64,000 nucleotides of DNA from Amoebophrya sp. A120 (GCA_905178155.1 CAJINV010000004.1:4201082-4265081), one strand, 5' to 3'. Counted from the first letter of the stretch, positions 6,001 through 55,851 are shown. Translations and numbers: made by a program. Notes: generated by a model not told the origin, from the letters alone.

Positions 6001-7361
6001 AGTGTGTTGACTCGAGCTTTATGCACACAGCATGCTATGCGTGTTCAAGCTCCTCCGCGTTGTTCCATCGATCCAGATCTTCAGCACAGTAACGATCATA
6101 CGCTCCTGCTTAGCTTAGTCGTCTCGTCGTCCCATCCTGATTCAGGAACAGAGCGAGTCAATCCATCTTGAAACACGACCGGAGTACAGATGTGAATCAG
6201 TGCTCCGCTCTGAATCATTCACACCAAAAGATGCGAACTCGACCGCTTTCCGTATGCTGATGAATGTGTTCAGAATTCCTAACAAAGTGTAAACCCTTCA
6301 AACGCTGCAAGTAATAAATCACTTATTTTCACAGAAACCCAAAGTGCCGGACGGGCAGAAGACGGCGCGGGCGATTTTCCAGCAGAGTGTCCAGCTGGAA
6401 GAGGTGAGCGATGTTGACAACTCCCCGAAGAAGCTTCTAACCGTGGCGTTGTTTGAGAACGACAAACTGATCAGCAGCGCCCTTCTATCATTTGTAAAAA
6501 CGTCCCCACCCATAGTCAAGTTGGGAATCTAGCAACACAACTCTCCAAGCTTCGGGAGCTGTGCATGACAAGTTTCCCTCTGCAGTGTAGTGCTGATTGG
6601 CAAGAGGAGGCGCATGAGAAAGCCACTTTCGCATCCTGTTTACAGCATTACAGATTCCAAAACACGATTGGAAATTCCTCTCATGGAGCTGCGCATTACA
6701 AATGTCCCTGTCGTTGCGCATTTGCATGCCAACTCTGGTGTGGGGACGTTAGTTTTTACTCAGGATACCTTCTGGAGGACCTGCAGGCGTACAAGAAGGC
6801 GTTTGCCACGGTGCAGCTGAAGGACGCGAAGGGGAAGAAGTATCCTGTGCAAAAGTATCGTACTCGTAGTAAAAATGATCGCAGTCATGCATTACAAATC
6901 TGGTTCCATAGGCAAATCCGCATGACAAATTCCATTTGTCATGCTGAGCGAATTTGTATCGCAATCACTACTAGTACGATACTTTTGCACTGCATAAGAA
7001 GTGCGGCTACGCAAATGTTCGATTAGACGATCCGAAGACCGCTATGAAAGTGCACAACTTCTCCCCCTCCCTCGTTAGTATTGCATGAACAGCAATACAA
7101 ACACCAGCGCACAGGGAGCCTATGCATGACATCAAATCTATGTACCTAAATGTAGTACTACTGTTTGGGCTTCCTGAATTATATGATGTCATGCATAATA
7201 GTGACCGAACCCCAAGGGAGCAGCTGACATTGTGGATTTTGCATGAGAAATGAGAACGAGGGGGAGTTCCTTCGTTGTGCACTGTGATAACCGCCGCCAC
7301 ACCCAGTTCCACGGGGAAAACGGAGGAAGAAGAAGCCGAAGAGGAGGCGGAAGAGGAGTAG
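1..7361 (+). CDS. C2-like domain protein, 5' end outside window
   Basis: Removing introners 125-380, 6486-6767, 6841-6996, 7043-7289 (plus one TSD each) and GT-AG intron 442-6334 gives ...LVLRVDKVAEIP..LSIRAGYG..FKLRTQEQKPKV..AIFQQSVQL..LTVALFENDKLISSALL..VQLKDAKGKKCGYANVRL..EEEAEEE* (TAG 7359-7361). C2 call is from beta-strand pattern only. Confidence 0.65.
125..380. mobile_element. Introner family D
   Basis: TATGG..CTCAAATGTTACATT / AATGTAACGCTTGAGAACGCCATA; TSD CAGCA/CAGCA. Confidence 0.85.
780..3500. repeat. GC-rich satellite with ~95-bp subunits and ~190-210-bp higher-order unit, alternating A/T tracts and (CG)n runs
   Basis: TGTCGAGA anchor at ~1743, 1935, 2131, 2316, 2516, 2730; degenerate copies flank this core and recur at ~4390-4840. 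Confidence 0.8.
4944..5432. repeat. 33-bp tandem repeat (~13 copies), each a hairpin
   Basis: Unit GACTTCCAGCTTCTCGTAGAGCCGGGGAAGCTG with CAGCTTC/GAAGCTG inverted arms. Confidence 0.92.
5475..5740. repeat. TCTAGA(TT) micro-array followed by ~32-bp palindromic repeats
   Basis: Many TCTAGA at 5478-5602; CAATAGACGTTCTG-N4-CAGAA.CTCTATTG about 3 times at 5629-5715. Confidence 0.8.
6486..6767. mobile_element. Introner family B
   Basis: TATCATTTGTAAAAACGTCCCCAC / GTGGGGACGTTAGTTTTTACTCAGGATA; TSD CCTTC. Confidence 0.92.
6841..6996. mobile_element. Introner family A (TATCCTGT end first)
   Basis: TATCCTGTGCAAAAGTATCGTACT / AGTACGATACTTTTGCACTGCATA; TSD AGAAG. Confidence 0.93.
7043..7289. mobile_element. 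Introner family C
   Basis: TATGAAAGTGCACAAC / GTTGTGCACTGTGATA; TSD ACCGC. Confidence 0.9.
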
Positions 7362-8258
7362 AAGCTAGAGCTGGTGCCGTTGGGAGAAGTGAGTGCAAGT
7401 GGAACATCAACAGTCGACGGCTCCTCGTCTCCTAGTTGATTTCTTTGAACACCAACTCCAGCGCGCACGACAGCCTCGTCCTGCCGAGTTGTTGCCTGCT
7501 GGGTTGAGTTCGAAAGAAAACAATTACAATTTTCTGAGTCCTTGTTGTACGCAGTAGAGCTGAGAAAATCAAAAGGAACTTGATGATGGTGCAGAAGTGC
7601 AGCGTGTGTTGGTTCGTCGCACTGACAATGTCACCAGTGTCTTCTGGTACTACAACGAAAGTGCTGCAACTAGGGCTAGTGTATTAAATGTAGTCGTGTA
7701 GCGACGATGAAATTAATTTTACGGCATGGTGAAAATCAAAACTAATAACTGCTGATCCTGATGTTCACCATTACTCGGGACGAAGAGCCGTGTTCGTATT
7801 TGTCTACGAGGACCCTTGTTGTCCTCCATGACGATGGGGATGGCGAGTACGTTGTACTGCAGCCGTCCTGGTTGTAGTACAACTAGGTCTGGAGAGATGA
7901 AACACAGCAGGACCGACGCGTAGTCGTGCTCGTGTCAAAGAAAACAGGTGCTGCGGAGCGCTTGCACTTTATTTCTAGATAGAACTTCTAGGTGAAGAGT
8001 GCGAGGAGAGTTATTGTTCTCAATCATACGATCGCCCGATCATGATGCTCCTTCAAAGTGGTTCAATGAATTAAACCCAAACATGTCGTGGTCCGTGACT
8101 TTATACCAAAGAGTCGTCGTTGTCGTTCACCCCTCGCAAGAACTCTAATTCTTCTGCTTGCTTTCCGTCCCGTTGGTGTACTAGTCCGACGCTTCGTGGT
8201 TCGTGTTGCGTGCCTCTATTAGTGCAGCGGTCCAGCCCGTTGGTTTTCGGCGAAAGAG

Positions 8259-11200
8259 ATGGAGCTGCTTCACGTGGGTCACCACATGAGCCTGTTTGCA
8301 ACCAGTTTCTTCTACGGAGGGGGCGGTGGAGGTCAAGGAGGTATCAACAACAACTATGATTGGCAGCACGCTTATTTTTCCGGTCAAGAAGACCTCGCGG
8401 TCCACGATCTTCGCCATGATGCAAGTTCGACAACATCATCGCACAGTTCATCCTCATCATCCTCTACTTCGCGATACAACGCCAGACAACTCGCGAGCAC
8501 TACCGCGGGCACCGCTGCGCCACTGCTGACGGAGGCGGACGAAAGTCTGCGGTTGCGGGTGCAAATCCTCTTGTTCTTCACGTTTATCTATGCATTGCAA
8601 AACTATCGTACTAGTATTGCATTACAAATTTTAATTTTTTCTAGAACAAAATAAAATGCAGTTTGTCATGCTATACCAGGTAAAAAGTATAGATCTGTGA
8701 TACACGATTGCAATTAGTACGAGTGCGATGCTTTTGCATTAGATATTATCGCTGCGGGCGTGGGCGTGTACCGCACCAAATATGCGTCGCTCACCGAAGC
8801 AGCCCGGGTCACGTCGACTGCGGTTGAGAAGAATTTCAAATTCACCTACCTTGGTGCGTACCTCCTCGCAATGCTCGCGGACTGGCTGCAGGTACTAGTG
8901 CATCAAACTTTCGGTTTTCATTGTAGTTTGCGGATCATCTGTGAAGCTGAATCCAGATAAAAACAAAAAGTACTACACGCAGTTCTTGTCATCTTCTCAC
9001 ACCAGCTGGAGATGGAATAAAGTAGAATGCTGCACAACGAAGTTCAACTTGTTGTACAAGACAGCCACTATCTATTACTTTCATTTTTTTACATTCGTTC
9101 TTCCATTCGCTCATTACGGCATAATAATTACCACACGACGACCTCCTCCCACTTCTAGGGCCCCTACGTCTACGCCTTGTACGCAGCCTACGGATTTTCG
9201 CACGAGGACAACTCGCGTCTCTTCATTTTCGGGTTCGGCAGCAGCATGCTGTTCGGCACCTTCATTGGCGGCTACGCGGACAAGCACGGCCGGAAAAAGT
9301 TCGCGATCCTGTACTGCATCGTGTACGCTCTGTCCTGCTGTACGAAACATTTCAACTCCTTCTTCATGCTCTCTGTAGGACGCATATGCAATGTAAATTT
9401 CCTGTACATGTACAAAATGCATGACAAATTTCGCTACCTTGCAGAGCCCAGCTTGTCATGCTGCACTAGGATTGGAGGCAAGTTTTGTCATGCAGAAACC
9501 ACATTTGTACGTGTTACTGTGGATAACGCATCCTCGCGGGCGTGGCCACCAGTCTGCTGTATTCCGTGTTCGAGTCGTGGGTGGTTTGTGAACACGCGCA
9601 ACGGGCATTTTCAGATGACGTGCTTGGTATAATGTGTTTAAAAATGTTGAGGAAATCGAAGGCAGTCCACGACTTTATTATCCTTTCTGTAGTACCAGAA
9701 GTCCTCTTGGTGGTTTGTGAGGTGTGTCACGGATCACGAATACGAAAGTAGACACTACAGTACTTTGTGTGCCGTCTCGACGTTTTGGGCACGAGCTGAT
9801 GATTATTTTGGATTTTTCATAGGCGATTCCATCTTGTTCTCGCGTCCATCTGCCGGAGTCGGAGAACTTACATACTACAACCACACCTGCACAATAGTTC
9901 CTCGCATCGTCCCTTCAACTTTTGCTTTAATATCCATTCCACAGGTGACATTTTCTCATTGGCGATTTTCGGGAACAGTTGCGTGGCCATTTCCGTTATC
10001 AAGTGCAAAAATGTCTAGGTCTGATGAACGAGTGTAAACTTGTCATGCAGATTTTGCATGACCCATGAGGTCTGGAATGCGGGACTTAGCATGGCAGACG
10101 CTGCGAGGTCTCTGCCATCCCTGTCCTGCATGAGAAACTCCCTCCCAACTTGGTCGAAAGTGGACAGCTTTTGGCGCTCATGCAACACAGATTTTTGTAT
10201 GCTTCAGATTTACCATGACAAGGCACCACTTTCCAGACCCAGATATATTTGCAATTCATATCCGCGGGTTTTCTGGCGCAGTGGGTGTCCGACCTGATGC
10301 CGTTCACGAAGGTGACCGAGGTCTTTTACATTGGACAGTACACGAACCCGTTCGACTTTGCCATCGTCATTCTGCTTTTGTGCGCCGGCTGGGTGCACAC
10401 GCAATGGTGCGAGAACTACGGATCCTCGAGTCTGGCGGCTACAACTTCTAGCGAGAACAAGGACCTTATCCAAGAAAAAACTGTGTTAGTGTAGCTTTCT
10501 TTGGCTGACAGCATCACAGATTTGCTCTACATGACAGAGAAAACCTGTCATGCCTGGCTTCCAAGGAAAAACACACATGAAAAGAGGACTTCATGGCTGT
10601 CTGGCATGACAGGCGTAACTCTGTTGCATGTTCTGCATCTACAGAGTTACACGTTGCGCAGTTTTTTTCTTCCAAAGACCTCGAATCGGTCCCCCAGGAC
10701 GACAACGCACTGACCCTGGAGGTATGCAATGCAAAAGTATCGTACTCGTAGTATTGCATTACAAATTAGCTCAGCATGACAAATGATATTTCTGATGCTG
10801 ATTTAGCTTGAAGAAGAAATCTGTCTTGCATGACTGCGATTAGTACGAGTACGATACTTTTGCACAGGATAGGAGGAACAGGGCTTGGCCGCACCCGTAT
10901 CGAATGCAAATGTGTCATCTGGGTCTGGGAGAAAGCAGAGTTTGTCAACTTACTTGGCTTCTAGCATGACGACGACTCTCAGCTCATCTGTCCTGCATGA
11001 TACTTTTTACCAGCAATAAAGAGCCCCACTGTTCTTTCATGACCAAAATCGCACGAAGACGCGGTTTGTCATACCGAAGCTACTTGCGCCCGTCAATATA
11101 AGGTTTATTCCTTCGTCCTGATTCTCCATCGATTTCGATCTCCAGCCCCCCCGCCGGCATCACAAGTAAGTTTCCAGACCCAAACAGCGTCATATTTGCT

Positions 11201-13687
11201 ATGCATAACCGGGCAGCGAGAGCAACGGTGACAAGTCGGACTTCGAGAAAGCGTGGCAACTTTTGAAGGAGGATATTCACTGAAAATGAACCCGCCTCCT
11301 CCAATTTGTCATGCAGAGCATGCAGTAAAGTAAAGTAGACGCTTGCTATCTATGCAAAAAGTGGATCGTGGGGATGGTTAGTTTTCCGGGAATACAGGAC
11401 CGAAAAATCCAGTCTGTTGCCCTGATGAGCGGGTTTTTTGAGTCCAGTATGTTCATTTTCGTGTTCCTCTGGACGCCGGCTATTTTGAAGGCGGACAACG
11501 GTGACATACAAACCCCGCCGTTTGGCCTGATGTATCAAACAAAAAAGTGTTAACGTTAACGGTTTTGCTGGATTGCAAGTATGCATGACAAATTTTGCCT
11601 AGCGCTAGCATGCATGCTACGCATGACAAATTCGGTTACTTAACGTAGTTAACACTTTTTCCTGTGATATGACCTTCGCGGTGTTCATGCTGGGATGCAT
11701 GACGGGCTATCAAAGTGAAAAAAGCCCCCACCCCATAGCAAAATGGAAATTTGTGCCGGTGATTTGTAGACACAAATCACGTTGTAATGCTAGAAGGGAA
11801 GAGATGCGGACTGTAGTGCTGGCTGGCGCAGGAACGCCTTGCGTCTTCAGCATGACAGAAAGGAACTGGAAACGGGAAACAGCATAAGAAACTGCCTCCA
11901 AGCGAAGGAACAACTGCGTCTCTTGGTCTTCTAGCAATACAAGTCGATTTTTGTACTCAAATACAGCAACACAAATTCCGTTTTCGATATGGGGAGGGGG
12001 GATTTTTCCTCACAATACGGGCAGCTGCTTCTTCTCGCACGTCACCACACCAACCGAAGCGGGCGGCTGGGGGTGGGACATCCACCGGTGCGCTTTCTTT
12101 CTCTTCGCCGGGTCCGCCGCAAGCCACGCGATCGTGGTGTTTTCGCAGAGCTCCTTCGCCATTCTGTCCGCGTTTGTCCTGTTTGAGGTGTGCGTCGGGA
12201 TGTACTTTCCCAGCATGGGCCTGCTCAAGTCCAAGGTCGTGCCGGAATCGTGCCGGTCAACGGTATAATTTCAGTGTCAGTTGTTTCTGTATAAGCTTAG
12301 TCAAGTAGCAATTGAAATTGCACATGCATGTACAGAGGTGACCACGAATTTTTGATAGTTGAAGAAGTTGTGAGAAGTGCCGTTTAGGTACTGATAACCT
12401 GTTCTCGGGCGCAGCTGCAGCTGCAGCGACAGGTGGATCCGTCGGTGGTAGGAGCTGGAACTCCGTGGCGAGAAGTGTGTCTCGTCCTCGAGCCAGCTGA
12501 TCTCAAAGCGACACTAGTCAATACAGGTTGATTGTGCTAGAATGAAATTAAAATTTTGAAATTTCGTCGATTTCGCTGATCGTTAAAAATAAAATTTTGA
12601 AAATTCGCGGATTTCACTGATCGTTAAAAATAAAATTTTGAAAATTCGCGGATTTCACTGATCGTTAAAAATAAAATTTTGAAAATTCGCGGATTTGTCG
12701 TCTCCGACGCCGATGCTTTTTACCTTCAAGATTTGAATTTCTTTTGATCGCCATACAATTTCCACCCTCAATGAAAATAAAATTTTAAAATTTCGCGGAT
12801 TTGCTCTCTCTTTTATGTTCCGTGTGTGTTGGTCATTGCCTTACGTGCCATGAGTGAGCACACATATGGGTCCTCTAGGCGCTCATGTAGACATTTGGTT
12901 GTGCTATAGTTTTTCTACGTCAATAAAAATAAAATTTTAAAATTTCGCGGATTTGTCCTTCTCCGAGAGCTCTATTCATTCCGTCCTCATGGTAAGGAGA
13001 AGTGGTTTTTTAGGCTTCTCCGTTGCGCCGGCCGGCCCCCTCGTCGTCGGCGCCGGGTCGACCCAATTGGGTGGTGGAAACGCATGTTGTTGTTAGAGCG
13101 TCGCGTCGTGTGCTGCAGTACGTAGGTCAATGCAAAAGGCCGGCGCCAACGAAAATAGAACACGTCGTGTAACCGGACTATTTAAGTACATCTAAATTGG
13201 TGCTACAATAGAACTGCGTTTTAGTGTATTAGCAGGTGTACTACAGCATGCTATTATAACCCATGATTCGAACAACAGTTGTACAACTTTTTCCGCGTGC
13301 CGCTGAACTTCATCGTTTGTTGCGTGTTGTTGTCGAACGTGCCGGTCAAATTGGGCTTCATTTTCACGACCGCATTGTTGTTCTGCTGCATCTACCTCCT
13401 CTACCGCATGGGTGATGTGGAAGGAATTACCAGCGCGGGCTCGCCTCTGGAAGCGGGGGAAGCGACGCAAAAGGAGCAGATTATCGGGAATGCCGACCTG
13501 GAAGAGGGAAATCCGATTGCGGGAGGGTATATGCACTGCAAAAGTATCGTACTCGTAGTATTGCATTACAAATTAGCTCAGCATGACAAATGGAATTTCT
13601 CATGCTGATTTAGCTTGAAGAAGAAATCTGTCTTGCATGACTGCGATTAGTACGAGGAGTGCGATACTTTTGCACAGGATAGGGTAG
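8259..13687 (+). CDS. MFSD5: MFS transporter, MFSD5/molybdate-anion transporter (DUF791) type; 10 introners and 3 GT-AG introns (8892-9158, 9627-9944, 12263-13278)
   Basis: Spliced motifs ADWLQGPYVYALY, GRILAGVATSLLYSVFESW, FESSMFIFVFLWTP, FEVCVGMYFPSMG, YNFFRVPLN. Stop TAG is formed only after removing the last introner. Confidence 0.88.
8589..8745. mobile_element. Introner family A
   Basis: TATGCATTGCAAAAC..CTTTTGCATTAGATA; TSD TTATC. Confidence 0.9.
9385..9525. mobile_element. Introner family E
   Basis: TATGCAATGTAA..TTACTGTGGATA; TSD ACGCA; restores GRILAG. Confidence 0.88.
9997..10260. mobile_element. Introner family F
   Basis: TATCAAGTGCAAAAATGTCTAGGTCTG / CAGACCCAGATATATTTGCAATTCATA; TSD TCCGT/TCCGC. 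Confidence 0.9.
10467..10676. mobile_element. Introner family G (3' end AAA instead of ATA)
   Basis: TATCCAAGAAAAAACTG / CAGTTTTTTTCTTCCAAA; TSD GACCT. Confidence 0.8.
10723..10871. mobile_element. Introner family A
   Basis: TATGCAATGCAAAAGTATCG..TTTTGCACAGGATA; TSD GGAGG. Confidence 0.93.
10898..11207. mobile_element. Introner family F
   Basis: TATCGAATGCAAATG..GGGTCTGG / CCAGACCC..ATTTGCTATGCATA; TSD ACCCG/ACCGG. Confidence 0.85.
11274..11394. mobile_element. Introner family H
   Basis: TATTCACTGAAAATGAACC / GGTTAGTTTTCCGGGAATA; TSD GAGGA/CAGGA. Confidence 0.8.
11533..11669. mobile_element. Introner family I
   Basis: TATCAAACAAAAAAGTGTTAAC / GTTAACACTTTTTCCTGTGATA; TSD TGATG/TGACC. Confidence 0.85.
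11708..12017. mobile_element. Introner, family B-like
   Basis: TATCAAAGTGAAAAAAGCCCCCACCCCATA / TATGGGGAGGGGGATTTTTCCTCACAATA; TSD CGGGC. Confidence 0.87.
12545..12696. repeat. 41-bp intronic tandem repeat (~3.7 copies) with dispersed partial copies at ~12775 and ~12925
   Basis: CGTTAAAAATAAAATTTTGAAAATTCGCGGATTTCACTGAT at 12581, 12622, 12663. Confidence 0.85.
13530..13681. mobile_element. Introner family A inserted in the stop codon
   Basis: TSD GGGTA; nearly identical to 10723-10871. Confidence 0.92.
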
Positions 13688-14706: not shown

Positions 14707-14850
14707 ATGTCCTGCTTTATCGGGCTCTTCGACACTTTTCGGGAGTGCTTCAATCCGAAAAGCATAACGGGCGGCCGCGACGTGCACGCGGCGTACTACG
14801 AGCGCGTACTGATGGCACCACCAAAGGGCACCCCAACGACGGCCACAAAG
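14707..14850 (+). CDS. 48-codon exon paralogous to the MDH N-terminus; probable alternative first exon or micro-gene
   Basis: MSCFIGLFDTFRECFNPKSITGGRDVHAAYY vs [33 protein letters not shown]; ends AAG|GTAC. Confidence 0.6.
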
Positions 14851-15974: not shown

Positions 15975-18515
<2,541 letters not shown>

Positions 18516-22592: not shown

Positions 22593-25075
22593 GGGCGACG
22601 AACTGAGAACGGCCTTTTTTCGAGGCTTAGATATAGCGGGTTTTTGGCGAATTGCCCACTTTCGGGGAAGCTCAGGCGAGGCCCCCAGCGTCTAGTTTTT
22701 GCGCAATAGCAGCGGCCTAATGCGCCGAATTCTCTACCTGAAGTTCGCGCCTGCACCACTTGCATTGTTTCGAAAACGGCGCGGCGCTCGCGCTAGAAAT
22801 ACCTTCTATAGAATATCCGCGCCCATTCCGCCCTAAATATTGAATATCCAGCGCGGTATCCTATATCCACGCCGTCCCGTCGTGGATATACACCGGGGGG
22901 GCGTAATATTTTATAAAATGACTTCCGCCGATTTGGCTCCGGAAATGGTTGCCATGGACACAGAAAGTAAATCCGTGCGCGTGCATTTGGGCGCGCTGGC
23001 GAACCAAAAAAATCAAGCAACCCAAGAAATCGAGCCTATATCTAGACGCAAAAAAAAGGCCATTCTCAGTTCGTTTCCGAATTTTGTCCCCCCATACGAA
23101 TGCTATCGCGATGAAGAAGAGCACCATCAAGGTGGTGAAGAAGTAGTGTACTCTCGTCTGCAAACTCCACGCACCAGCGCGAGGCATTGTAAACACCAAG
23201 AATCGTGACAACTACATAGGTCCTTACATATTCCACACTAATTATTTTTCGACAGTTTTCCTTGGCCTGAAGCTGATTCATTGACGCATGCGACATCCAC
23301 GTAAAACGAGCTCTGAAGACAACGCACGACTTCTCAGTGTTTGATGGGCGGTTCAAGTACTTAAGTAGGTTCCGAGAAGGATTTAATAGAACTCGTCTGT
23401 GTTCCATCGTTGAAAGGAGATACAATACTTAGTTTCTGCACTGGTCGTTCTTGTTGACCGAGTTCCTGAGCCTACTAGCTGCGTTTTTTTCACTACTCCG
23501 AGCGCGAGCACGGCCGGGCCCGAGCGAGAATATTCCAAAGGATGCCTGTCTCCGATGTTAAGGGGTGTACGACCTGTTCGAGGGATAAAGATATGAGGTG
23601 GCAGATTTTTGAGAGGACTGCGGTTGCAGTCGTATGTTCTGGTAAGAGGTGAAGATACGACAGGAGAGAAGAAAATAATAAGGAGCAACAAGAATTACTG
23701 GTGCTCGCGTAGAAGGTCCAATCCAAATCAAAGCGCACTCAATATGGCAAACAACTTCGACTCTGCAACCACTTTTCGCTCCCGTACCTACTGGGTTGTA
23801 GCTTCACGGTAGAGCCGCGAGATAGAGGCCCACTGAGATTTACGAACAAGATGGCGTGGCGCTGATGTTGCGCAGCAGCCCTTCGACGAAATATTTGGAG
23901 TGTGTCGCAGTTGGGTTTTGCGAGGCCGAGGAGATTCAAGGTGGCGGGGTTCCGTGTGTGTTTTGCTTGGCCAAGGGGCTGCGCGCGCGTTGATGAAAAG
24001 GGGCGCGCGCACCAGGACACGAGTCAGCGGGCCGGCCTGTGGCGCCGAATGCAGTCAGGCTGCCCTGCTAGTTCAGCAGACCTTCACCGCGCAGCATTCA
24101 ATCGCCAAACAAGGAAGTGCAGGACCGGCCGCCTGCGCTCCAAAAACACGCAACCCGTTGCCCGCGCCAAATCGCTACCGCTAGCGCCCCGCGGCAGTCG
24201 CCTGGCCGTAATCTGCCCCCTTTAACCGGGCGGACCGCCCGAATTTCTCCGCCCCTGTGCGCAGCAGTATGCCGCCGGGCCGCGCCTACCCTTCGTTCTG
24301 GGGGGGAAAACAGGCGGGCGGTGGGCACAAAGCCGCCGCCGCCCGGCCCAGCCAACCTCGCACCTTCGCGCCGCCCTTGCTGAGCAAGGCGGCAACGGAG
24401 GAAAGCGCTGGGCGTGTTGTTGTGGCCGCGCGCCATGCGGTCACCCACCCAGCCAAGCGCGTGGGGCCTTTCTTTCGTTGGCCGCCTGCTCAGTTGGTTC
24501 GCTCGCTTTTTGCTGTTGCCCAGGGCGGACAAAGCCGCCCGCCCGGGTTTGGCGCCCGCCGGCCCCCTTTCCTGACGAGACGGGTGTTTTACCCGCCGAA
24601 AATGCGAAGGGGCTGGCCGCTGGCAGCGTGGGGGTGGGACGGGAGCTGTTTTCCCGAACCGGCTCTGTGTCGCAGGGGCGGAGCTGTCTCTGCCTGCTTT
24701 GCATTTGCAAACTGTTGTGGTGCGTGCCGCACTTTGTTCAAATGGATGCCGGCTGAGGAGTGTCTGGGCCACCAGAGTGTTTAGCCTAGAGAGGGCGCGC
24801 CGCGTACGTAAGCATGGTTTCGGATGAGTTGCAGTTCCTAGCATCAAATCTAGAAACAAAAGATAGCGCCGGTGACCGTGGTTCCGGTTCGCGATCGATG
24901 AGAGGCGAAGTTGAATGTTGAGGATGAGCTGTTCTGCGTAGTTCGCGCCGGATCATATCCCTCTCCAACCAGCGATCATGAAGTTAAAGACCGAGGAGTC
25001 TACTTCTAGACAAAAAGTAGGGGATCTCACGTTCATCATCCGACTGCAATAACGAAGATATCAGAATCGACGAAG

Positions 25076-27586
25076 ATGCCCAATAAGACCCTTCACTCCG
25101 CGACTTCCCTGTTGCGGCGGCAGGAAAAGCTCTCCAAGCTCGACGTGGACGAAGACGCCGCGGCGCAGGAGCTTGCCAGGGAACTCAATCGCTTGCTGGA
25201 CCAACGCCGCGAACGGGAGGAGACAACAACCCTTCGAAACAGTGACGAAACCGATAATGCAGCAAGACGAGGAACTACCGATGGTAGCACTAGCAGTAGC
25301 ACCTCCGGCGCAAAGCTGGATTATGGCGATGGAACCGAAAAAACGGCCAGTGGTGCTGCAGTTTCATCGTCAAATAGACACGTCGACACACGCACAAGCG
25401 AGGTGGACGACGACACGCGACAAAACGAGGCAAAGGATTATGGGGGCGGACGAGGTCTAGGCGGTCCTCGGGGGGTTCTTGCGAGCTCCACCGTTGATGA
25501 TCCAAGTCTTCTAGCGTCTGGCGACCCGGAATTGATTGCGCTCGAGCGAGTATGGAAATGATGCATTGTAGCATTTCGAATCACTTTATTTTGCAGCAAC
25601 TCAATGTGCAACTTCTTAGCAGATCATCGTATAGCAGCGAACAAGAGTACACTTGTGTATGTTGGGCTTCATGTTGTTGTTGCGCGATCTGCGCCATTAC
25701 GTGTGTATGTAGTGGGAATCTGGGTTATAAAATAGAGTGTGCGTGACGCACCACCGATGCTAGAACATAAGCTTTCTGTGACAGAAAAAGTGACGGGATA
25801 TTTTCGCTCCACGAACCGAATTGCAGTCCCAGATGCAGAAGTTCTGCCCAGCACTTGTCGGTACTAACCTGGACGTTTTTATTTTGGTTTTGTTTTCGGG
25901 CTCCTGCGTCTGTTCTTTACGACCGAAACCGATAATCAAACTGCACAAAGCTTACACTGAAAAAAAAAGAAAAAAACATCTGAATGCACAACCATATTTA
26001 TCAGGCCGCGCCGGTCCAGCTCCAGCAGCCAGTGACACCGAGTTAGACGGAGACAAATCTGGGTCCCAACAAGGCGCAGCATTGTCCTCTGCTTCTCTGT
26101 CAAATTCCGCACAGAAAGACAAGAATCTGCATGGTGTGGACTTCGAGCACGATGAAACCGAGCAGAGTCTGCAGATAAACGTCAACGCTCCGTCAAACAG
26201 TTGGCGCACAACATCGTCTTCACAGGACAAGACCCCTAGTAAGACTCTGCGTGCATCGTTATCGAATACGGCGACCTCCCTCCGGGACAGTACCACCTCG
26301 ATCGGCGGGCTAACAGGCCGAACTCATCAAGACCACCACACTTCCACCGGTGGAATAAAGACCCCCTCCAGTCGAAGCAACAGCCGAGAGCCTGGGTCTG
26401 CGAGAGGGAATATTAAACACCCGCAGCTTTCAGCTCGCGGTGGAAGGGAAGGAGGTGGCGCTGCAATTCCCCAACATTACGGAACGCCCACTTCCAGCAG
26501 CCGGTCTGCAACATCTTCCCGTCGCAAATCTGACCAAGAACTACATCAAGACGCGACCATTGCTGCGTTGTACCGAAACACGCGCAACGTGGAAGACTTG
26601 CTCCGGCAGACCGACACGGCCTTCCAGCAGCTCCCGAAAATCGAAGCGGACGCTGTCGCGCTGGAGGTGGATGAGTTGGCGGGTTTGAATATGCATTGCA
26701 AAAGTATCGTACTCGTACTGATCGCATTCATGCATTACAAATTTCTTTCTTAAGTTAAATCCGCATTACAAATTTCATTTCTCATGCTGTCTGAGGATAT
26801 TAATTTGTCATGCGATTTGGATTTTATACTAGTACGATGCTTTCGCATTTCATATTGAAGTTGGAGATGCAGTTTCTCGAGTCCGCGTTGAACGAAAGGG
26901 ACGGCGGGGGGACAACCACAGCCGAAGAAGAGGAGGAGAAGGCGAATAAAAGGGACGAAGATCATCGTGGTCTAGACAAGCGAGGGGATTCGTCCACCTC
27001 CCAGGGACAGGGTGCAGCAGTACTGGGCGGAGGAGCTTCTACATCAACCACTATAGGAGCTGCCCATAGTTACAACTACGTGGAGGATGCGGCGACGCAG
27101 CTTCTGCAGGACGAACTGGCGTTGCTGGAAAAGGAATGGGCGGTGCTGAAAAAACGCGAGCACGCACTCTGCGCTGTTGCGGAACTCGAACTCCCGTCGA
27201 GTGAATCTCCTGCAGCTGTGAGTGGAGACGTTGATCATGTGAAAAAAGCTGCAAGTAGTGTTGGCGGACGAGATTTTCTGTCGCGGACCTCGAAGGACGA
27301 GGAAGTAGAGTCGACTCATCAACAACAAACTGCCAGCGCGGCACGGGCCACGACACTGCGACGGCAGAATGAAATGCTTAAGGCAAAGTTCGGCATCACC
27401 GGTCTGGTATCAAAGCAGCCGGGAAATTATAGCAGCTCGTCAACATCTACTGATCCTTCCAAGGACGGAGCTGCAGGCGAAGTAGATTTTGCGTCGTCGA
27501 GTGACCACGGGCACCGTATCAGTAGAACTGGTCCCTTACGTCGATTAGACGAGGATTTGGCGCGCTTGGATCGGGTTCTTGAATGA
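25076..27586 (+). CDS. Hypothetical coiled-coil/low-complexity protein; GT-AG introns 25550-25826 and 25861-26004, one introner
   Basis: ORFs 25076, 25821 and 26810 join in frame via a 34-nt exon at 25827-25860 and introner removal. Confidence 0.65.
26690..26854. mobile_element. Introner family A
   Basis: TATGCATTGCAAAAG..CTTTCGCATTTCATA; TSD TTGAA. Confidence 0.9.
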
Positions 27587-28134: not shown

Positions 28135-30697
28135 ATGACCGAAACGACCGGCAGTGTGACGGAGCTACGGCGAAGCCAGCACTTCCGCTACACGGACCGC
28201 AGTCGCGTGTTGTCCAGCCGAAATCAATCTCCGGAACAAGAGGGTCGTGCAGTGCGAGTTTCACAACGAAAGTCTCGCTTTACGACAAGAATAAGAATAG
28301 CAGCGATGGCGAGTGAGACTGTGGAGATGATGGCGTCGATCCTGCGAGGTGGAACTGAAGATGACGAGCCGATGAAAACGAGGCGGATGAAGAATGACAA
28401 CTTCTCTCATCTCTTTCCAGAGCAGCTGAGGGCGCTTTTCCAAAAACCAGGACAGCTCAGCACTCACTGCAGCGCCCTGACTCCTGGAGATGAGAGTTTT
28501 TGGAAAATTCTAGACCGAAGCTGTAGTTTTAAGACGACGCAAAAGACCTCGCGCGCCAGCAGCACGACCAGCACACCCGGTAAAGCGGCGTCCTTTTTCC
28601 TCGCCATCCTGCTTTTTGTCGAGCTCCTCACGACCCTGCTTCACCAGGCCGCCGCACTGAAAGTAACCGCGAAGGTCGGTCGGAAGGTGTACGACGAGGC
28701 AGCGATGGCGCGGCGGATGCTGGAGGAGCGAGTTCAATTAGTCTACGGCTCCCTGTCCGTGGGCGATCCGCCCCAGAAGTTCACCGTCGCCTTTGACACG
28801 GGGTCGTCGGAGCTGGTGTTACCCTGCTCATCCTGTACAACCGGCAGCTGCATTTCGCACACGCGGTATGATTTACTGCAATCCGCGACCGGCAGCCAGA
28901 TTTTCACCACCAACGTCGCCGGGAAACAGGTAGCAGAAACGGAAACGCGGATTTTCGGCATGCAGGGTGTGGCCAAAGCCAACCCGATGCGGGACAAGAT
29001 CTGTATTGGCAACCCCCCACCGGCAGACGAAACCACCGCCTCCAGCGCCGACGCCGCTGCCCCGTCTTCGCTCTGTCTGCCGGAAGCCGCGCCGTTTCTG
29101 TGCGCCAACTCCTTGTCGGAAAACTTGTTCGGCCAGCTGCCGTACGACGGGGTCCTCGGGCTGGGACTGTCGGGGGCGAAAAAATCCAAGTACGACCTGT
29201 TCCAAGGGTTGATAGACGCCGGCATGCTAAAAACGGACCGGTTTGCGCTGTGGTACAGCGATTTGACGGACGAAGGGGCGGCGAACACGATCACCTTCGG
29301 AGAGCACGACAGAACCAAAATGGCCAGCAAGATGTACTGGGTAAGACAAGTGATTATATTCAGAAAGCTCTTCAACAACTGAGTTTATGATCTTGATGAT
29401 AGCACTTCTTGTTCAACATCACCCACGATCAGAACTCAACTAGGGCACAACTTTCATTCCTTGACATTCCTACGGCTACATCATTTCAAGTATTAAACGC
29501 AGCTTCCCGTTCCCTACCCCGCGACCTCCTGGGCTATGCCGATGACGGATGTGGTGGTGGGCCGCTTCATCACGGCCGTTCCGGCTGCGTCCGCAGACGA
29601 CGGTTCCGCCGATAGTGCCGCCAGCACCGGCGCGCCGGGAGGTGCGGAAGCGGCAGCAGGAGGTACAAGTGCGACCGCGGATGGCGCGAACGCCGACGCC
29701 GAGGACAATTCCGGCAAAAGTTTCATGTCGGAACCGCTGCGGCTGTGCGAAGCGCCGCAGACCTGCAAGGTGGCGTTTGATAGCGCGAGCCCGCTGATCG
29801 TGCTCTCGCAGCTATGCATTGCAAAAGTATCGTACTAGTAGGAATTGCATTACAAATTTCCTCAGCATGAGAAATAAAATTTGTGATGCGGATTTAGCGT
29901 GAAAAAGAAATTTGTAATGCATGAGTGGGATTAATACTACGAGTGCGATACTTTTGCAATGCATAGCAGCCGATCTACGACAAGGTGAAGGAGTCCATCG
30001 CCGTGGGGTTTCCACAACAACCCTATCCTGTGCAAAAGTATCGTACTCGTATTGCAATCATGCATTACAAATCATTCGGTTTTAGGTAAATCCGCATTAC
30101 AAATTTTATCCCTCATGCTGAGGAAATTTTTCGTAAATGCATTTACACGAGTGCGATACTTTTGCAATGCATAAACCCGTGACCGACACGAAACTGGCGG
30201 ACTGCCAGCCGCTGCTGATGAAGATGCCGAAGATCGGGATTCAGCTACGAGGGATAACATTCTTCCTCGATGCCGAGGACTACGTGGACCGCAGCAACGG
30301 GATGTGTGTGTACCGCTTCCAGCCCATGGAGAGCGACGAAAACCTGATTTACCTCGGCGCGCCCTGGTTCGAGAAGTTTTACACGGTGTTCGACCGAAGC
30401 TCCCTAAAAATCGGCCTGGCGCTGAGCAAGCACGTAGGTGTTCGGGGGGCGGAGTACAGTGGAAGCACCGGGGTGCCGGAGGACGCCATTGAGGATTTGG
30501 AGAAAGTTACGACGACAACGAGTACGACGACGGATAGTGGTGGCAGTGTTTCATCAGATGTTGGAGCAAATGCCGCCGCTGACACTACAACCAGTGTGGA
30601 CAGTGCGTCAAGTGGTACTTCTGCTGATGTTGGAACAACAGCAGCTGCTGCGCCAGCAACCTCCGCACAGGCAACCGCCGCGTCGGTGACAAGGTGA
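28135..30697 (+). CDS. Pepsin-like (A1) aspartic protease; GT-AG intron 29341-29502 and 2 introners; start uncertain
   Basis: VAFDTGSSELVLP, YDGVLGLG, VAFDSAS, YLGAPWFEKFYTVFD, hydrophobic signal/anchor segment. Confidence 0.88.
29813..29965. mobile_element. Introner family A
   Basis: TATGCATTGCAAAAG..CTTTTGCAATGCATA; TSD GCAGC. Confidence 0.93.
30024..30173. mobile_element. Introner family A (TATCCTGT end first)
   Basis: TSD AACCC. Confidence 0.92.
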
Positions 30698-31645: not shown

Positions 31646-34600
31646 ATGATGTCTGGCGAAATTGCAGCCAGCGTAGCTGCCGGAGCTGCGTTTTTATCGA
31701 AGGAGCAGGAGAATAAAGCCACCGGTGTGATGACCGGCGAAGATCAGGGGACGAGTGCAGCTAACACATCGAGTTTGGCCGCCGAGAACCTGCTGTTCCC
31801 AGTAGAAAATGAAAATGATACTACAGCCACAGCTGGTACCAGCACCACAGCAAAGAAGACGTACGAGTTTTTCGAGCCAACGACCCACGAGCACCAAGAA
31901 AAAGCCACGACCCATGCGTTTTTCTTGTCCAAAAAATCTCCCTCTTCTTCCCCGAACGCAGGCAGCCGCGGCACAAGCAGCTTTGCGCTGCAACCACAGC
32001 CAAGGGCAACAGGAGGAGGGCCTCCTCCAGGGGCGAACAATGCTGCTGTGGGGAACAAGAACATAGCAGGAGCAGCTGGTGTTGAGGGTAGTACGAATCA
32101 ACAGCACACCGCTAATTATACCCAAGAACTACATCAGCAACACTTCCTGAAGAAGCCGCTCCCACCGCTGATCGCCCAGGGCAGTGTGTTGGGCGCCCGT
32201 AGTTCGCGGTACTCCACGCGCGCGGGAGCTGCCTCGTCAAGCGTCGCCGGTGGACAACTTTCAGCGGGAGCAGGTGCAGCAGCTGCCAGTACTATCCCTT
32301 TGGGAGCACCAGCCATTTCAAGCGCTGCGTCTAGCACAGCAGCATCTGCAACATCAAGTAGTGGCTCTGTAGTTGTACTACCAGCGGCTTCCAACAACCT
32401 ACAACCTTCGAACTTTTTCAACAATGCAGCCAAGAGCGCGGGGGCACCATTTCAAAATGCGCCCCAGAACAGTCCTCCATTGCCGCCGTTTGTGATGCCT
32501 GCTTCAGGTGTTGACCAGCTGACGGTCAAAAAAAAGGTCAGTCCGACGACAGCGACCGCTGGTGGTTCCTCCTCTTCAACTTCATCTTTACTCGCCGCGG
32601 GCAATAACACTGTGTTAAACAATAAGCCGATAATTGGAGCAGGTACAACGATGCTGACGTCCTCTGGTGTGCCGCTGCTCTCGATGAGCACTTCTAGAGC
32701 GAAGTCCTCCTCGCCACCAGGTTCAACAACTATTGAAAATCAACATGTACCGGAGCTACTCCCAGGTAACGCACTGCCGAACAATAGTACAAATACAAAC
32801 AAAACCTTCTGCAATTTCGACCCGCTGCACAACGCCGGAACCACCATTGGACAGCACCTGCTGGCCGCACCAGTTGTGGATGAGCTCGAGAACCAGGCGC
32901 TCGAATCGTCTACGCGCGCGGCGGTGCTGCGACAGGCCCAATTGCGGCATTTGCGCGGAACAGCGGAGGTTGGTAGTTCATCATCTTCATCACCCGGAGC
33001 CGCGGGTTCCCCAGGAACTGCAGTGATTATCCCAGGAGGCGGTGGCCTCATCGGAACTGGCGCTCCTACCTCCCTGAACTCCCCCGGGGGAGGACCAGGA
33101 ACGGGCAACTCCACGCCACCGCGACAACTGTCCCCGAAGATTCAGCTGCAATTGCCCGAAATTTACGACGCGGACACCGATCCATTGGCGCAGCAACTGG
33201 ACATGGAGGAGCACATGCGGGAGCTTGCGCAGCAGTTCGGAGGTGGACCGCAGCATTTGGATGTGGTGAATCAATTGCGGAATCTGGACGAAGACAAGGG
33301 GTGGTGGGGCGGAGGTAATGGCGGTTCATCTGGGTTCGACTCCTCGGACAGCGATGACGATCGGTGGGATGAAGAAAAGTGGAACGATATCCTAAGAAAA
33401 AATGTCCCCACCCCAGAGTTGTCATGCAAATGCGCAATGAGAGCAACATTTGTAATGCGGATCTGCATGAGAGGCATTTGCATTTCGAATCGTGTTTCGG
33501 ACTTTGTAATGCTGTAAAACGAGATGAGAAGCTGGCTTTCTCATGCGGCTGCCCTTGCTAATAAACAGCACGACAATACAGATGGGAACTTGTCATGCAA
33601 AACTCCCATAAGGTGGAGATTTGTGTTGCAGATTGATCAACTTGACTACGGGGTGGGGACGTTTTTCCTCAGGATAAACGACCAGGCAGCGTTGATGATG
33701 GCCGCCGCAGGTGCGCAGAACAATAACAAACCAGCAAACGCCGTTGAGTTCAACGCAGCGCAACACTTATTTACCGAGGAGCCGAATGAGGAAGAAATTG
33801 GCGAATCCTCCAGTTCCTCCTATAGCTCCCCGACTGGCGATACATTAGCAGCCGAAAAACCGATTTTTGCCGCGAATGACATGGACGAGCAGGATGTTGA
33901 TGTTGAAGTAGTCGCCGGCCAAGAAGGGCAGAATTCGATAAACGCGGAGCTGGAGCATTTTCTGGCCAGTACGACGCAACAAGACTTCAGCATGTTGTAC
34001 CACCAGCAACAAGGGAACAACATGAAGCGAACAAATACGGACTTTGATGATCATCTTCATATCGGAAACAAAAATAACAAGCCGCCCCCGGGACTGGGAA
34101 ATAGTGATGATGATAGCGAAGACAGTGATGACAGCAACGGCAGCAACGAGGAGATACTAAACCAAGAAGGGCAACAAAATTACAGTCCACCGGGGCTTGG
34201 ATCTACTTCGGGAGCAGCATCTTCATCCTTAATAGTGGAACAGGGAGAGCAGGGACACGAACAGACCTCCACCGCGTCGACACATCAACGGTCCCGACTT
34301 TTGAACAACAGTCGCAATTTGATCAAAATTCGAGGTACATCTTCCCCGTCGTCGTTAGAGCAGAGCAGCAGTGGCAAAATTACCAGCGAACAAAGCCATG
34401 GCGAGGCTGACGAAAAGCTCCAGTTTACCTTCACTGCCGCGATGGGGGCCAGCAATAGCGACTTGAGGGCAGTACCTGGTAATGCAGAGGAACTTCTGCC
34501 ACAGCGGCTCCGTCTGTTTGCCGCTGGTGCGCCTAGTACCTCTTCTAGTTCATCATCTACAGCGAGAAAAAAATCCTCGTCCCCGACGGGGCAAATAGAA

Positions 34601-37126
34601 GATGCCGAAAACAACAACAACAGCGACGAGGAAGATTTTGATGCGGATGGTTCGCTCAGCCTGAAGCACAGTCAGAAAGTGGTGCATATGGCGTTCTCAA
34701 ATGTTACATTTTCAACTGTTGCATGAATTTCTAATGCAAAGACGGCAAATCTGAAAGGGGGAAGATTGCGCCTTTTGCATTACAGATTTGGCACGCCGTT
34801 AGATGCTGCTTAGCCCTTCGGAGATTTGCCATGCGAAGCACCTTAATCGCGGCGATCTTCGTGGTAAATTTTCATGACAAATCGTGTAACGGTTGAGAGT
34901 GTAACGTTGGAGAGTCCCATAGGGCAAACTCTGAAGCGGCGCCGCATTCCAGACCACATCGACACCGATGACGCCGGGGCAGGAGCGGTAGAAGATGCTC
35001 CTGCGGGAAATAACCATCGAAGCGTGTTTCATTTTCGGGACCGGGGTATCCGAGGGAAGTGTTATGGTTTCTTCTTCACGATCACGATTCAACATCTTCG
35101 TTTTTATTGAAACAACAACATCGTGAATTTTGCATCGATTCTGGCACTGGTTATAGTCCACATGCCCGCATGCGCATGGAGAAAGGCAAAGCAACAAGGT
35201 ACGTTGCGCTTTCTAGAGTTGTAGCAAAAGGTAGGAACAACTCTATGGTGTTATTCGTGATCGTCGTGGCGAAGATTTTTCCGCACGATACAAAAGAGTA
35301 GTGAAAAGCAGGCGGCTTTACTCGCTGGCAGTATCACGTCCTCCCCAAGTGGCGCAGGAGGAGCAGGCGCTTTTGGCAGCCGCTTAAAGCTGGTATTGAA
35401 CACAAAAACTACGAGTAGAATAGACACACACTGAAGAGAAATGTAGTAAAAGCTCGTTCCATGTCAAAGTGGGGGACAAAAATTTGTCATGCGTTTTGAC
35501 TACGCCAAACCCAAACCTAAACGAAATCCACAGGGCCACCACGTCCGCAACCCGATCTCTGGAGGGATGATGGACGGGAATACGCTATCTTTTTGGCGAA
35601 ACCCGGAGAACGCGTTCCGGGGGCCCATGCTCGCCTCGTCCTCTCCTACGGGCGCCGCACAGAATGGAGGCGGCGGCGGAAGTCCGACCTCCTTTTACGA
35701 TCATCCCGCTGCGTTTGACTCACCGATGTCTTGCAGAACAACCTGTATCAAAGAAACTTTTGCTACTTCAATAGGAATTCGGGCTCTTTGTCTCTCTTCT
35801 TCAGCCTACATTTTTAAGTTTTGGCTTTTTGGTGACACTTTTGTTGTATCCTGAAATATCCAACAACTTCTAACAGCGGAACAGGAAGTTTCCGTCCGGG
35901 AGGCTACGTCGGCGGGCAAACCTGGGAGCAGGGACCTTATGATCTAGAACTAGTGTTTAACGCAGCTTAGCAGATCGATGTGGCCGCGACAAGAGACTTA
36001 AGCTTAATAGTACCTTTGGACGCAGCATGCGACAAGAGGACTACTTTCCTACTGGAACTGGTTGAGTTCTTGTTGACTAGCCAGGATCACCACGAGCATA
36101 TGCAAATGCATATGCATTTTTCATTCTTTTGTCGCGGTAACTACACCAGAAGAAGGAATCTGTCGTGCACACGACCTAACCCTAAGCTGCCTCTTCTTCC
36201 CTGCCATACTTCCTCTGCGCCGAATCCGGAATAACGATGTGCTGGACTACATATCAAATGCAAATATGTCTGGGTCTGAAAAGGTTCGAATTTGTGATGC
36301 TACCTCCTTCCTTCGGATGCTAACAAAATCTGTATTGGATGAATAGCAAAACCAGTCCACTTTTGGCTGCACGGCGAGGGCATTTCTCATGCAGGACAGG
36401 CATGAAGAAGGCCACGCAAGTCCTGTGAAGATGCTAGGGCATACATCACAAGCGTCGCGGGCTATTCAGAATGTGCATGACAAACCTTGCATGTTTCCAG
36501 ACCCAGACACTTTTGCAATCCATACAACATGAGCGGTGTCAAGTTTGACGAGCTACCGGACATCCACTCCTACCGGGCATGGGCGCGCATGCAAGAAGAA
36601 AAAGGAAAGAGGTACAACTAGTAGAACTGTGGATCTTCATGAGTGACAGATGAATAGCGCAAGTGGATGAGCTACTAGTTGTGCCTAGAAGTAGCATAAC
36701 CATTAGCTGTGGATTCTACGAAAGAAAGTAGAAGTCCATGAGATGAATATCATGGGAAATTATAAACAAGTAAAGCATGACCATGTGTTGGTATAACATG
36801 ATCAAAACCTCCAGGGGCGCGAGCAACTACGCTGACGGAAGCTTTTCGCGAGGCCTGGAGGATTTTTTTGCGAATGGTCCGGGAAAGGAGCTTATGAATT
36901 GCAAAAGTATCGTACTCGTATGAATGCATTACAGTTCCCTCAGCATGAAAAATGAAATTTGTACTGCGGGTTTACCTGAAGAAAAAAATTTGTAATGCAT
37001 GACTGCAATTAGTACGAGGCGAGCGCGATACTTTTGCACAGAATAGAGCTGCTGGCACGAGATCTCGTGGAGACCGGACTGTCCCCAGACATCACAAACG
37101 AGCTGCTGCGCCTCCTGCCAAACTAA
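31646..37126 (+). CDS. Large low-complexity hypothetical protein; at least 5 introners plus GT-AG introns; structure at 35745-36210 uncertain
   Basis: ORFs 31646, 33524 and 34874 join in frame after introner removal; last exon ends ..ELLRLLPN TAA 37124-37126. Confidence 0.55.
33388..33676. mobile_element. Introner family B, opposite orientation to 6486-6767
   Basis: TATCCTAAGAAAAAATGTCCCCACCCC / GGGGTGGGGACGTTTTTCCTCAGGATA; TSD AACGA. Confidence 0.93.
34687..34921. mobile_element. Introner family D, opposite orientation to 125-380
   Basis: TATGGCGTTCTCAAATGTTACA / TGTAACGTTGGAGAGTCCCATA; TSD GTGCA/GGGCA. Confidence 0.85.
35047..35290. mobile_element. Old introner (family J) with decayed TSD
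   Basis: TATC..ACGATCACGA / TCGTGATCGT..GATA; flanks CGGGG/CAAAA; removing element plus 5 nt restores the open frame SSEKQAALLAG.. Confidence 0.6.
36252..36524. mobile_element. Introner family F
   Basis: TATCAAATGCAAATATGTCTGGGTCTG / CAGACCCAGACACTTTTGCAATCCATA; TSD CTACA/CAACA. Confidence 0.88.
36893..37045. mobile_element. Introner family A
   Basis: TATGAATTGCAAAAG..TTTTGCACAGAATA; TSD GAGCT. Confidence 0.92.

Positions 37127-55820: not shown

Positions 55821-55851
<31 letters not shown>

What the first reader, a model, noticed from the sequence alone, without database searches (positions are those of the whole stretch)
6486..34921. The same introner families occur in both orientations within + strand genes
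Seen: family B 6486-6767 is roughly the reverse complement of 33388-33676. Family D 125-380 is opposite to 34687-34921. Family A starts TATCCTGT at 6841 and 30024 but ends ACAGGATA at 10723, 13530, 16768, 43091, 43646 and 55798. Known: spliceosomal signals (donor, branch point, acceptor) are directional. Inference: removal relies on symmetric features (TIR stem, TAT/ATA, bidirectional motifs), so any insertion is immediately spliceable.
Basis: partly seen in the sequence, partly recalled or inferred. Interest (0 to 1): 0.8.

Follow-up and report, generated by a model that had tools for sequence, protein, structure and literature searches.

The report
Transposon introns that splice either way
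These are the already published transposon-derived introns of the marine parasite Amoebophrya A120; copies of one family sit in genes in both directions and are missing to the base from likely messenger-RNA contigs either way, likely because both ends carry the same short signal, cut one base before and four bases after.

Summary
The core observation holds. 42 elements with TAT...ATA ends interrupt + strand genes whose exons match Amoebrophrya-type (Amoebophrya sp. A120) proteins at 100%. Families A, B, C and E occur in both orientations (A: 8 and 8). Family D does not in this window, and one A copy (16768) was misassigned. In RNA-like contigs, 15 of 15 shown element joints skip the element plus 5 nt, including both orientations of families A and E. 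In a second assembly family A is 55:55 relative to the inferred gene strand, and target sites look like ordinary coding sequence. All informative junctions fit one cut, 1 nt before TAT and 4 nt after ATA, even where an 8-nt duplication leaves an extra codon. The internal 'bidirectional' motif is not needed for removal, and a need for the RNA stem is not shown. The elements are published (Farhat 2021); two-orientation introners are known in Polarella. I found neither the unbiased orientation nor the register in print for Amoebophrya; this scan noted the register before on other pieces of the genome. Likely mechanism: a relaxed spliceosome reading symmetric ends.

The parts
125..380 (+). Family D element, orientation 1. 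For all elements: coordinates run TAT to ATA, the removed intron is start-1 to end+4; strand + = orientation 1, - = orientation 2 of the family; all host genes are on +
   Evidence: frame
6486..6767 (+). Family B element, orientation 1
   Evidence: removal indirect (693-nt contig fits within 4 nt)
6841..6996 (+). Family A element, orientation 1
   Evidence: removal indirect
7043..7289 (+). Family E element, orientation 1
   Evidence: contig piece begins at 7290
8259..13686 (+). Host gene, MFS_5 transporter, 608 aa, 10 elements and 3 GT-AG introns
   Evidence: model equals P0001 only in the 1/4 register; 2717-nt contig equals model length; Pfam
8589..8745 (-). Family A element, orientation 2 (weak call)
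9385..9525 (.). Element, single copy in window
9997..10260 (+). Family C element, orientation 1; duplication mismatch at position 5
10467..10676 (+). Family F element; ends AAA, not ATA
10723..10871 (-). Family A element, orientation 2; by chance GT..AG in the 1/4 register
10898..11207 (+). Family C element, orientation 1 (weak call)
11274..11394 (.). Element, single copy in window
11533..11669 (.). Element with 3/5 duplication; fixes the register (residue 434)
11708..12017 (.). Element, single copy in window
13530..13681 (-). Family A element, orientation 2; 95% identical to 10723
   Evidence: contig piece begins at 13681
15975..18515 (+). Host gene, malate dehydrogenase family, 370 aa, 3 elements and 5 GT-AG introns
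   Evidence: all 8 joints in run X3; Pfam
16768..16923 (+). Family A element, orientation 1 by interior, end variant on the other side
   Evidence: joint 16761>16923 skips 161 = 156+5
17314..17574 (-). Family C element, orientation 2
   Evidence: joint skips 266 = 261+5
18163..18378 (+). Family E element, orientation 1
   Evidence: joint skips 221 = 216+5
22575..23096 (.). 522-nt element with 8-nt duplication in an RNase HII gene; removed with 5 nt, leaving one extra codon
   Evidence: contig piece ends at 22573 as predicted for +5, not +8 (22566); extra Ala in P0121
25551..25813 (.). Old element: TAT start, 3' end decayed to A-C-G, no duplication left
   Evidence: needed to reproduce P0122; no RNA laid here
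26690..26854 (+). Family A element, orientation 1
29813..29965 (-). Family A element, orientation 2, aspartyl protease gene
30024..30173 (+). Family A element, orientation 1, same gene, 58 nt from the former
33388..33676 (-). Family B element, orientation 2
   Evidence: joint skips 294 = 289+5 in X3 and X6
34687..34921 (+). Family D element, orientation 1
   Evidence: joint skips 240 = 235+5
35047..35290 (.). Old element without duplication; unambiguous cut 1 before TAT, 4 after ATA
   Evidence: joint 35045>35295, no ambiguity
35938..36208 (.). Old element without duplication; cut 1/4 or 2/3
   Evidence: joint 35935>36212
36252..36524 (-). Family C element, orientation 2
   Evidence: joint skips 278
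36893..37045 (-). Family A element, orientation 2
   Evidence: joint skips 158 = 153+5
40502..40650 (+). Family A element, orientation 1, phosphatase gene (40135-51502)
   Evidence: no joint among those shown
41570..41824 (.). Family C element, orientation unresolved
   Evidence: joint skips 260
42206..42513 (-). Family E element, orientation 2
   Evidence: joint skips 313 = 308+5
43091..43240 (-). Family A element, orientation 2
   Evidence: joint skips 155
43284..43505 (+). Family E element, orientation 1, same gene as 42206
   Evidence: joint skips 227
43646..43795 (-). Family A element, orientation 2
   Evidence: no joint among those shown
44324..44462 (+). Family A element, orientation 1 (weak call)
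   Evidence: no joint among those shown
44541..44830 (+). Family B element, orientation 1
   Evidence: no joint among those shown
49280..49439 (+). Family A element (weak orientation call), 3/5 duplication; cut 1/4 or 2/3
   Evidence: joint 49277>49443
51284..51455 (.). Nearly palindromic element
   Evidence: joint skips 177
53785..53947 (+). Family A element, orientation 1, MA3-domain gene (53251-56862)
55034..55302 (-). Family C element, orientation 2
55798..55960 (-). Family A element, orientation 2, same gene as 53785
56522..56730 (+). Family F element

Best explanation
These are the Amoebophrya A120 introner elements: short transposon-like inserts that sit in exons in either orientation and are missing, with exactly 5 flanking bases, from likely mRNA contigs in both orientations, likely because a relaxed spliceosome reads the identical end signals that the inverted repeat presents either way. 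Shown: both orientations occur and are skipped; all informative junctions fit a cut 1 nt before TAT and 4 nt after ATA; the cut ignores the target duplication. Inferred: the elements spread as non-autonomous DNA transposons with a 5-nt duplication, and 1+4 = 5 makes removal seamless for any target, phase or direction. Inferred mechanism: N-U-A-U at the 5' end mimics the G-U-A-Y donor of this genome's ordinary introns with position +1 free; at the 3' end a U run at -17 to -15 and the first A of ATA at -7 (candidate branch adenosine) set the acceptor by distance instead of AG; end-to-end pairing may help but is not shown to be needed.
For: Direct joints: 15 of 15 element joints shown skip element+5 (3, 12), on contigs that also skip GT-AG introns; both orientations for A (16768 against 36893, 43091) and E (18163, 43284 against 42206). 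The DNA-like run X1 has contigs that keep the GT-AG introns and run into the elements (e.g. 13653-16806). Register: 35045>35295 unambiguous; 35935 and 49277 allow 1/4 or 2/3; five more give one-sided limits; only register 1 of 6 reproduces P0001, and residue 434 is I or V in 94 of 100 relatives; the 8-nt duplication leaves 3 nt. No orientation bias: A 55:55, seven families both ways (strand caller right in 39 of 40 held-out tests; 9 loci hold both orientations whatever the strand call). Spliceosome-like hints: 17 of 19 ordinary donors here are GTAY; terminal changes fall at U+2, A+3, A-7 three times and at their mirror positions 11 times (p 0.057), and the one U+2 change makes a GC donor; old elements keep the pyrimidine run and A-7 (25551, 35047, 35938); last/first base pairs GG, CA, AA are 50 of 174 against 21% (p 0.02, post hoc). 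Most spliceosome proteins and U2, U4, U5, U6 are reported in A120, U1 is not (PMC7789003 section 10). Fixed short branch-to-acceptor distances exist in other lineages (PMC2483917, passages).
Against: No direct evidence of a lariat or of snRNP involvement. The strand asymmetry is not significant and has three exceptions. Ordinary introns here have A at -7 in only 6 of 19 (one search list), so they do not share the 3' code. No AG and no G+1 preference at all, which no spliceosome known to me tolerates (recalled). The geometry resembles the Euglena code, for which non-spliceosomal factors are proposed (PMC12501133, passages). RNA evidence is contigs of one sample whose RNA status is a guess by the tool; 4 of 16 elements in the second laid stretch had no joint among the 15 of 17 rows shown; family B orientation 1 has only indirect support. 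The three deposited proteins probably derive from the same genome project and are not independent.
Confidence: 0.6

Rival explanations
1. A separate, non-spliceosomal machinery (endonuclease and ligase, or a domesticated transposase partner) recognises the paired ends and cuts at fixed offsets, as proposed for Euglena nonconventional introns.
For: End-to-end helix predicted in 40 of 41 elements on the sense strand and 39 of 41 on the antisense strand; free junction bases; motif-plus-spacer geometry like Euglena N3-CDG...CHG-N5-6 (PMC12501133, passages); U1 not found in A120.
Against: No excess of G-U over A-C in the stem (23:25; 76:56, p 0.10); repeat positions 4-7 next to the cuts pair in only 13-25 of 41; 35938 is skipped with no predicted end-to-end pair, and old elements with decayed repeats are still removed; the 5' end matches the local GTAY donor at +2 to +4.
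Confidence: 0.3
2. Opposite orientations arise mainly after insertion, by inversion of the interior between the two repeats, not by insertion in both directions.
For: 16768 has an orientation-1 interior with the end variant at the 3' side; 2 of 46 and 4 of 60 copies in the second assembly carry the variant at the unexpected end.
Against: The end variant follows the interior in most copies (31 of 46 at the 5' end in orientation 1, 30 of 60 at the 3' end in orientation 2). It would not change the conclusion that both orientations are removed.
Confidence: 0.07
3. The elements are excised from DNA (somatic elimination or absent alleles), so the joined contigs are not splicing products.
For: The tool only guesses that X3 and X6 are RNA; most X1 joints were not displayed (764 rows hidden).
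Against: The same contigs skip GT-AG introns; depth falls to 0.18 over a long intron; the 8-nt duplication case and mismatched duplications give a 1/4 chimera, not a restored or footprinted site.
Confidence: 0.03

Closest known systems
Introner elements / non-canonical introns of Amoebophrya sp. A120 (Farhat et al. 2021, PMC7789003; read: abstract, passages, sections 10, 11, 16, passages of the supplement text; figures not visible)
   Same: Same organism by 100% protein matches (P0001, P0121, P0122); ends TAT + 7 variable nt + AAA; 5-bp direct repeats; many families; hairpin proposed.
   Different: [quoted passage not shown] Added here: no orientation bias, removal in both orientations, one 1/4 register independent of the duplication.
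Introner-like elements of Polarella glacialis and Aureococcus anophagefferens (Roy et al., bioRxiv 10.1101/2020.10.14.339549; read parts 1-2 of 4; Huff et al. 2016 not held, known here only through that text)
   Same: DNA-transposon-like introners with inverted repeats and target duplications; several classes make introns in either orientation.
   Different: There, near-canonical splice sites (GT/GC/GA, AG) come from the element or the target, which limits targets, biases phase, and for classes 6, 8, 10 biases orientation. Here no junction dinucleotide, target, phase or orientation bias was found.
Nonconventional introns of Euglena (PMC12501133; passages)
   Same: No GT-AG; short complementary motifs at fixed spacers from the cuts; MITE origin proposed.
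   Different: Euglena code is N3-CDG...CHG-N5-6 with a purine starting the next exon; here N1-TAT...ATA-N4; unrelated lineage; no reporter tests exist here.
Branch-anchored 3' ends of Yarrowia, Trichomonas, Giardia introns (PMC2483917; passages)
   Same: Acceptor at a fixed short distance from a branch motif.
   Different: Those keep AG and a full branch motif; here there is no AG and the branch role of A-7 is untested.

Membership tests
Amoebophrya A120 introner elements | Inverted repeat starting TAT, 7 variable nt, then at least AAA | tested here: met
   A at repeat positions 11-13 in 32-39 of 41 at both ends; TAT/ATA was part of my selection for most window copies, but 140 and 139 of 146 had it when one change was allowed
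Amoebophrya A120 introner elements | 3-5 nt direct repeat at the borders | tested here: met
   Perfect 5-nt repeat in 28 of 41 window elements, most others 3-4 of 5; one 8-nt case; none left in old copies
Amoebophrya A120 introner elements | Repeated families, non-GT-AG, removed from transcripts | tested here: met
   Families; GT..AG possible in 1 of 41; 15 joints
Amoebophrya A120 introner elements | Host is Amoebophrya A120 | tested here: met
   Three exon queries hit proteins named Amoebophrya sp. A120 at 100%
MITE (non-autonomous TIR DNA transposon) | Short, terminal inverted repeats, target duplication, many copies | tested here: met
   121-522 nt, repeats and duplications; 144 loci in a second assembly
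MITE (non-autonomous TIR DNA transposon) | Cognate transposase; presence/absence polymorphism at orthologous sites | not testable with these tools
   No whole genome held; no second-assembly locus overlapped window genes
U2-type spliceosomal intron | GT/GC donor and AG acceptor | tested here: not met
   GT..AG in 1 of 41 and 3 of 146; AG not enriched
U2-type spliceosomal intron | Branch adenosine, lariat, snRNP dependence | not testable with these tools
   Only indirect: A-7 conservation, p 0.057
Polarella/Aureococcus-type introner | Splice dinucleotides carried by the element or recruited from the duplication | tested here: not met
   Duplication composition equals coding background; phases flat
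Euglena nonconventional intron | N3-CDG...CHG-N5-6 code | tested here: not met
   Ends are N1-TAT...ATA-N4
Euglena nonconventional intron | End pairing required for removal | tested here: inconclusive
   Helix predicted in 40 of 41, but no G-U excess and one skipped element without it

The most novel reading that the evidence does not exclude
Amoebophrya A120 has a second, non-spliceosomal splicing system that finds a symmetric TAT...ATA tag, cuts 1 nt before and 4 nt after it whatever the junction bases, direction or phase, and so makes every 5-bp-duplicating transposon insertion silent at once; it arose independently of the Euglena system.
Probability: 0.25. Interest if true: 0.85.

Novelty: already known. 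Interest (0 to 1): 0.45.

Why it matters
The removal of over 60% of the introns of this organism is an open question in the paper that described them. Indifference to direction, target and phase explains how so many insertions were tolerated in exons. The code N-TAT...TTT-N7-ATA-N4 gives exact positions to mutate and a predicted branch site, so spliceosomal and non-spliceosomal models can be told apart with one lariat or reporter experiment. It also fixes intron borders that annotation left ambiguous, and shows how an insertion with a longer duplication adds a codon.

Tried and rejected
Family D as an inverted pair in the window: rejected. Terminal variant as an orientation marker: unreliable (16768). 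Internal GCAT-N-AC motif as a two-way branch point: rejected; 56 sense and 42 antisense copies in 8984 nt of elements against 6 in 27551 nt of exon, but at no fixed distance and absent from the sense strand of 10 of 41. A 3' excess of the acceptor-like end CAGGATA (9 against 2 in the window) vanished in the second assembly (32 against 35). G-U excess as a sign of RNA pairing: not found. My guess that 25550-26000 was one element ending at an ATA near 26000 gave an open frame but was wrong: P0122 needs an old element, a short exon and a GT-AG intron; counts for ordinary introns still include that stretch. No RNA holder was on record; X3 and X6 are guessed to be RNA. No match of the family A pattern in viral contigs. 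Literature: searches and finds showed no statement on orientation or register for Amoebophrya; subscription papers are missing from the library, Huff et al. 2016 was not held, and figures 3, S19-S25 of Farhat et al. and the datasets of Gozashti et al. could not be seen and may show either.


Full report
What the window is. The window holds about ten genes, all on the + strand, broken by ordinary GT-AG introns and by 121-522-nt inserts that begin TAT and end ATA. Three single-exon queries hit proteins named Amoebophrya sp. A120 at 100% identity. The inserts match the published A120 introner signature, TAT plus seven variable bases plus at least three A (PMC7789003 section 11). A scan found 34 start-end pairs with a 5-nt duplication (at least 4 of 5) and an inverted repeat, against 0-4 in 10 shuffles. 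The working set was 41 elements: 36 from that scan, 3 added by eye, 2 revealed by RNA joints. A 42nd, old one came from protein P0122.

Orientation. Because the repeats make each element partly its own reverse complement (56-79% self-identity), I called orientation on whole copies and on interiors with 30 nt trimmed from each end. Family A has 8 and 8 copies (6 and 7 firm). Families C and E are also mixed. Opposite copies share genes: 29813 and 30024 lie 58 nt apart in an aspartyl protease gene, and the phosphatase gene holds both orientations of A and of E. Two details fail: the family D pair has the same orientation, and 16768 has the interior orientation of 6841.

Removal. Taking out each element plus 5 nt restores long frames. 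Contigs of run X3 join all eight introns of the malate dehydrogenase gene, five GT-AG and three elements (15 of 779 joint rows shown). In 32900-51700, 15 of 17 joints were shown: 3 GT-AG and 12 elements, of the 16 elements there. All 15 element joints skip element plus 5 nt. They cover both orientations of family A (16768; 36893, 43091) and E (18163, 43284; 42206) and orientation 2 of B (33388). A 2717-nt contig equals the spliced transporter model, ten elements included, for the one acceptor that came within 12 nt of that length. A 693-nt contig fits removal of 6486, 6841 and 7043 within 4 nt, but its start is free, so this is indirect. Limits: contigs, one sample, RNA status guessed; no efficiency.

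Larger sample. A family A pattern returned 144 loci (255 kb) from contigs with the accession prefix JACKZZ01; their elements are up to 91% identical to window copies and none overlapped window genes. A coding-strand model was right in 39 of 40 held-out window tests. Of 249 element calls (0 in a shuffle), 191 had a strand margin above 5: family A 55:55 (3 ambiguous), B 2:5, C 10:13, D 4:2, E 2:2, F 3:5, H 2:2, G 1:0, I 0:3, 18 unassigned. Nine loci hold both A orientations. Element-plus-5 gave the best coding frame in 38 of 51 and 47 of 58 copies of the two orientations (chance one third). Random strand calls would also give 50:50; the held-out test, the nine loci and the window's own 8:8 argue against that.

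The cut is fixed and directional. Perfect duplications hide the cut; damaged ones show it. One joint is unambiguous: 1 nt before TAT, 4 nt after ATA; two allow 1/4 or 2/3; five give one-sided limits that include it. Of six registers only this one reproduces P0001; the residue that decides it is I or V in 94 of 100 relatives and never the T that registers 2-5 give. The element at 22575 has an 8-nt duplication: a contig piece ends at 22573, as predicted for removal of 5 nt and not of 8, and P0121 carries the extra alanine. So the machinery measures from the element ends and does not look for the duplication. I reached this before reading the scan's earlier notes, which report the same register on other pieces of the genome.

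What is read. The junction bases are free: duplication dinucleotides match coding background, AG is not enriched, phases are 11, 13, 15. The internal two-strand motif is dispensable and is more likely a transposon feature (inference). An end-to-end helix is predicted on either strand, but repeat positions 4-7 pair poorly, there is no G-U excess and one skipped element has no predicted end pairs. In the 1/4 register the intron starts N-T-A-T, and 17 of 19 ordinary donors here are G-T-A-Y. Following a lead from earlier notes, I counted terminal changes by sense position: 3 at U+2, A+3 and A-7, 11 at their mirror positions, among 170 elements (p 0.057); suggestive only. This favours, modestly, a spliceosome that has dropped G+1 and AG and sets the acceptor from A-7; A120 reportedly keeps most spliceosomal parts but lacks U1, and fixed branch-acceptor distances are known elsewhere. 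The Euglena-like alternative remains open.

Verdict. The system is published, and introners that work in both orientations are known in Polarella and, by that paper's account, Aureococcus. Those recruit near-canonical sites and show biases. An orientation-, target- and phase-blind introner with one non-canonical register was not in the texts I could search. Already known system, useful new handle; interest 0.45.

Noticed in passing
window 22575-23096: 522-nt element with an 8-nt duplication and no internal motif, still removed in the 1/4 register; adds one codon to an RNase HII protein.
   Followed up: yes
window 11528-11674: A conserved isoleucine codon is built from four letters of the upstream duplication copy and one of the downstream copy; neither copy alone gives it.
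   Followed up: yes
window 16768-16923: End variant and interior disagree in orientation, as in a few second-assembly copies; suggests exchange or inversion between the repeats.
   Followed up: partly
window 62300-62539: Family-B-like 3' half, inverted relative to 44541, without a TAT start; 41 nt inside it recur at 63811-63851; I could not restore the frame of this last gene. Rearrangement or assembly fault.
   Followed up: partly
window 700-5480: GC-rich array of about 100- and 200-nt units with CG runs and A/T runs, then a 33-nt tandem repeat; a similar GC-rich patch near 23990-24700.
   Followed up: no
window 12263-13278: 1016-nt GT-AG intron with 41-nt tandem repeats at 12545-12707.
   Followed up: partly
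window 38747-39763: A 1-kb contig without joints in both RNA-like runs between two genes; not examined for coding.
   Followed up: no
window 40135-51502: Predicted 3043-aa protein with one calcineurin-like phosphoesterase domain and long low-complexity tails.
   Followed up: partly
L001:1492-1641 (in the orientation of the called gene strand): Family A copy starting CAT behind a G, giving a GC donor, inserted just before an ordinary GT donor.
   Followed up: partly
window 10177-10222 and 17313-17574, run X9: Raw RNA reads that do not match the genes carry one end of a family-C-like element with a single flank: a related element in another strain or species.
   Followed up: no
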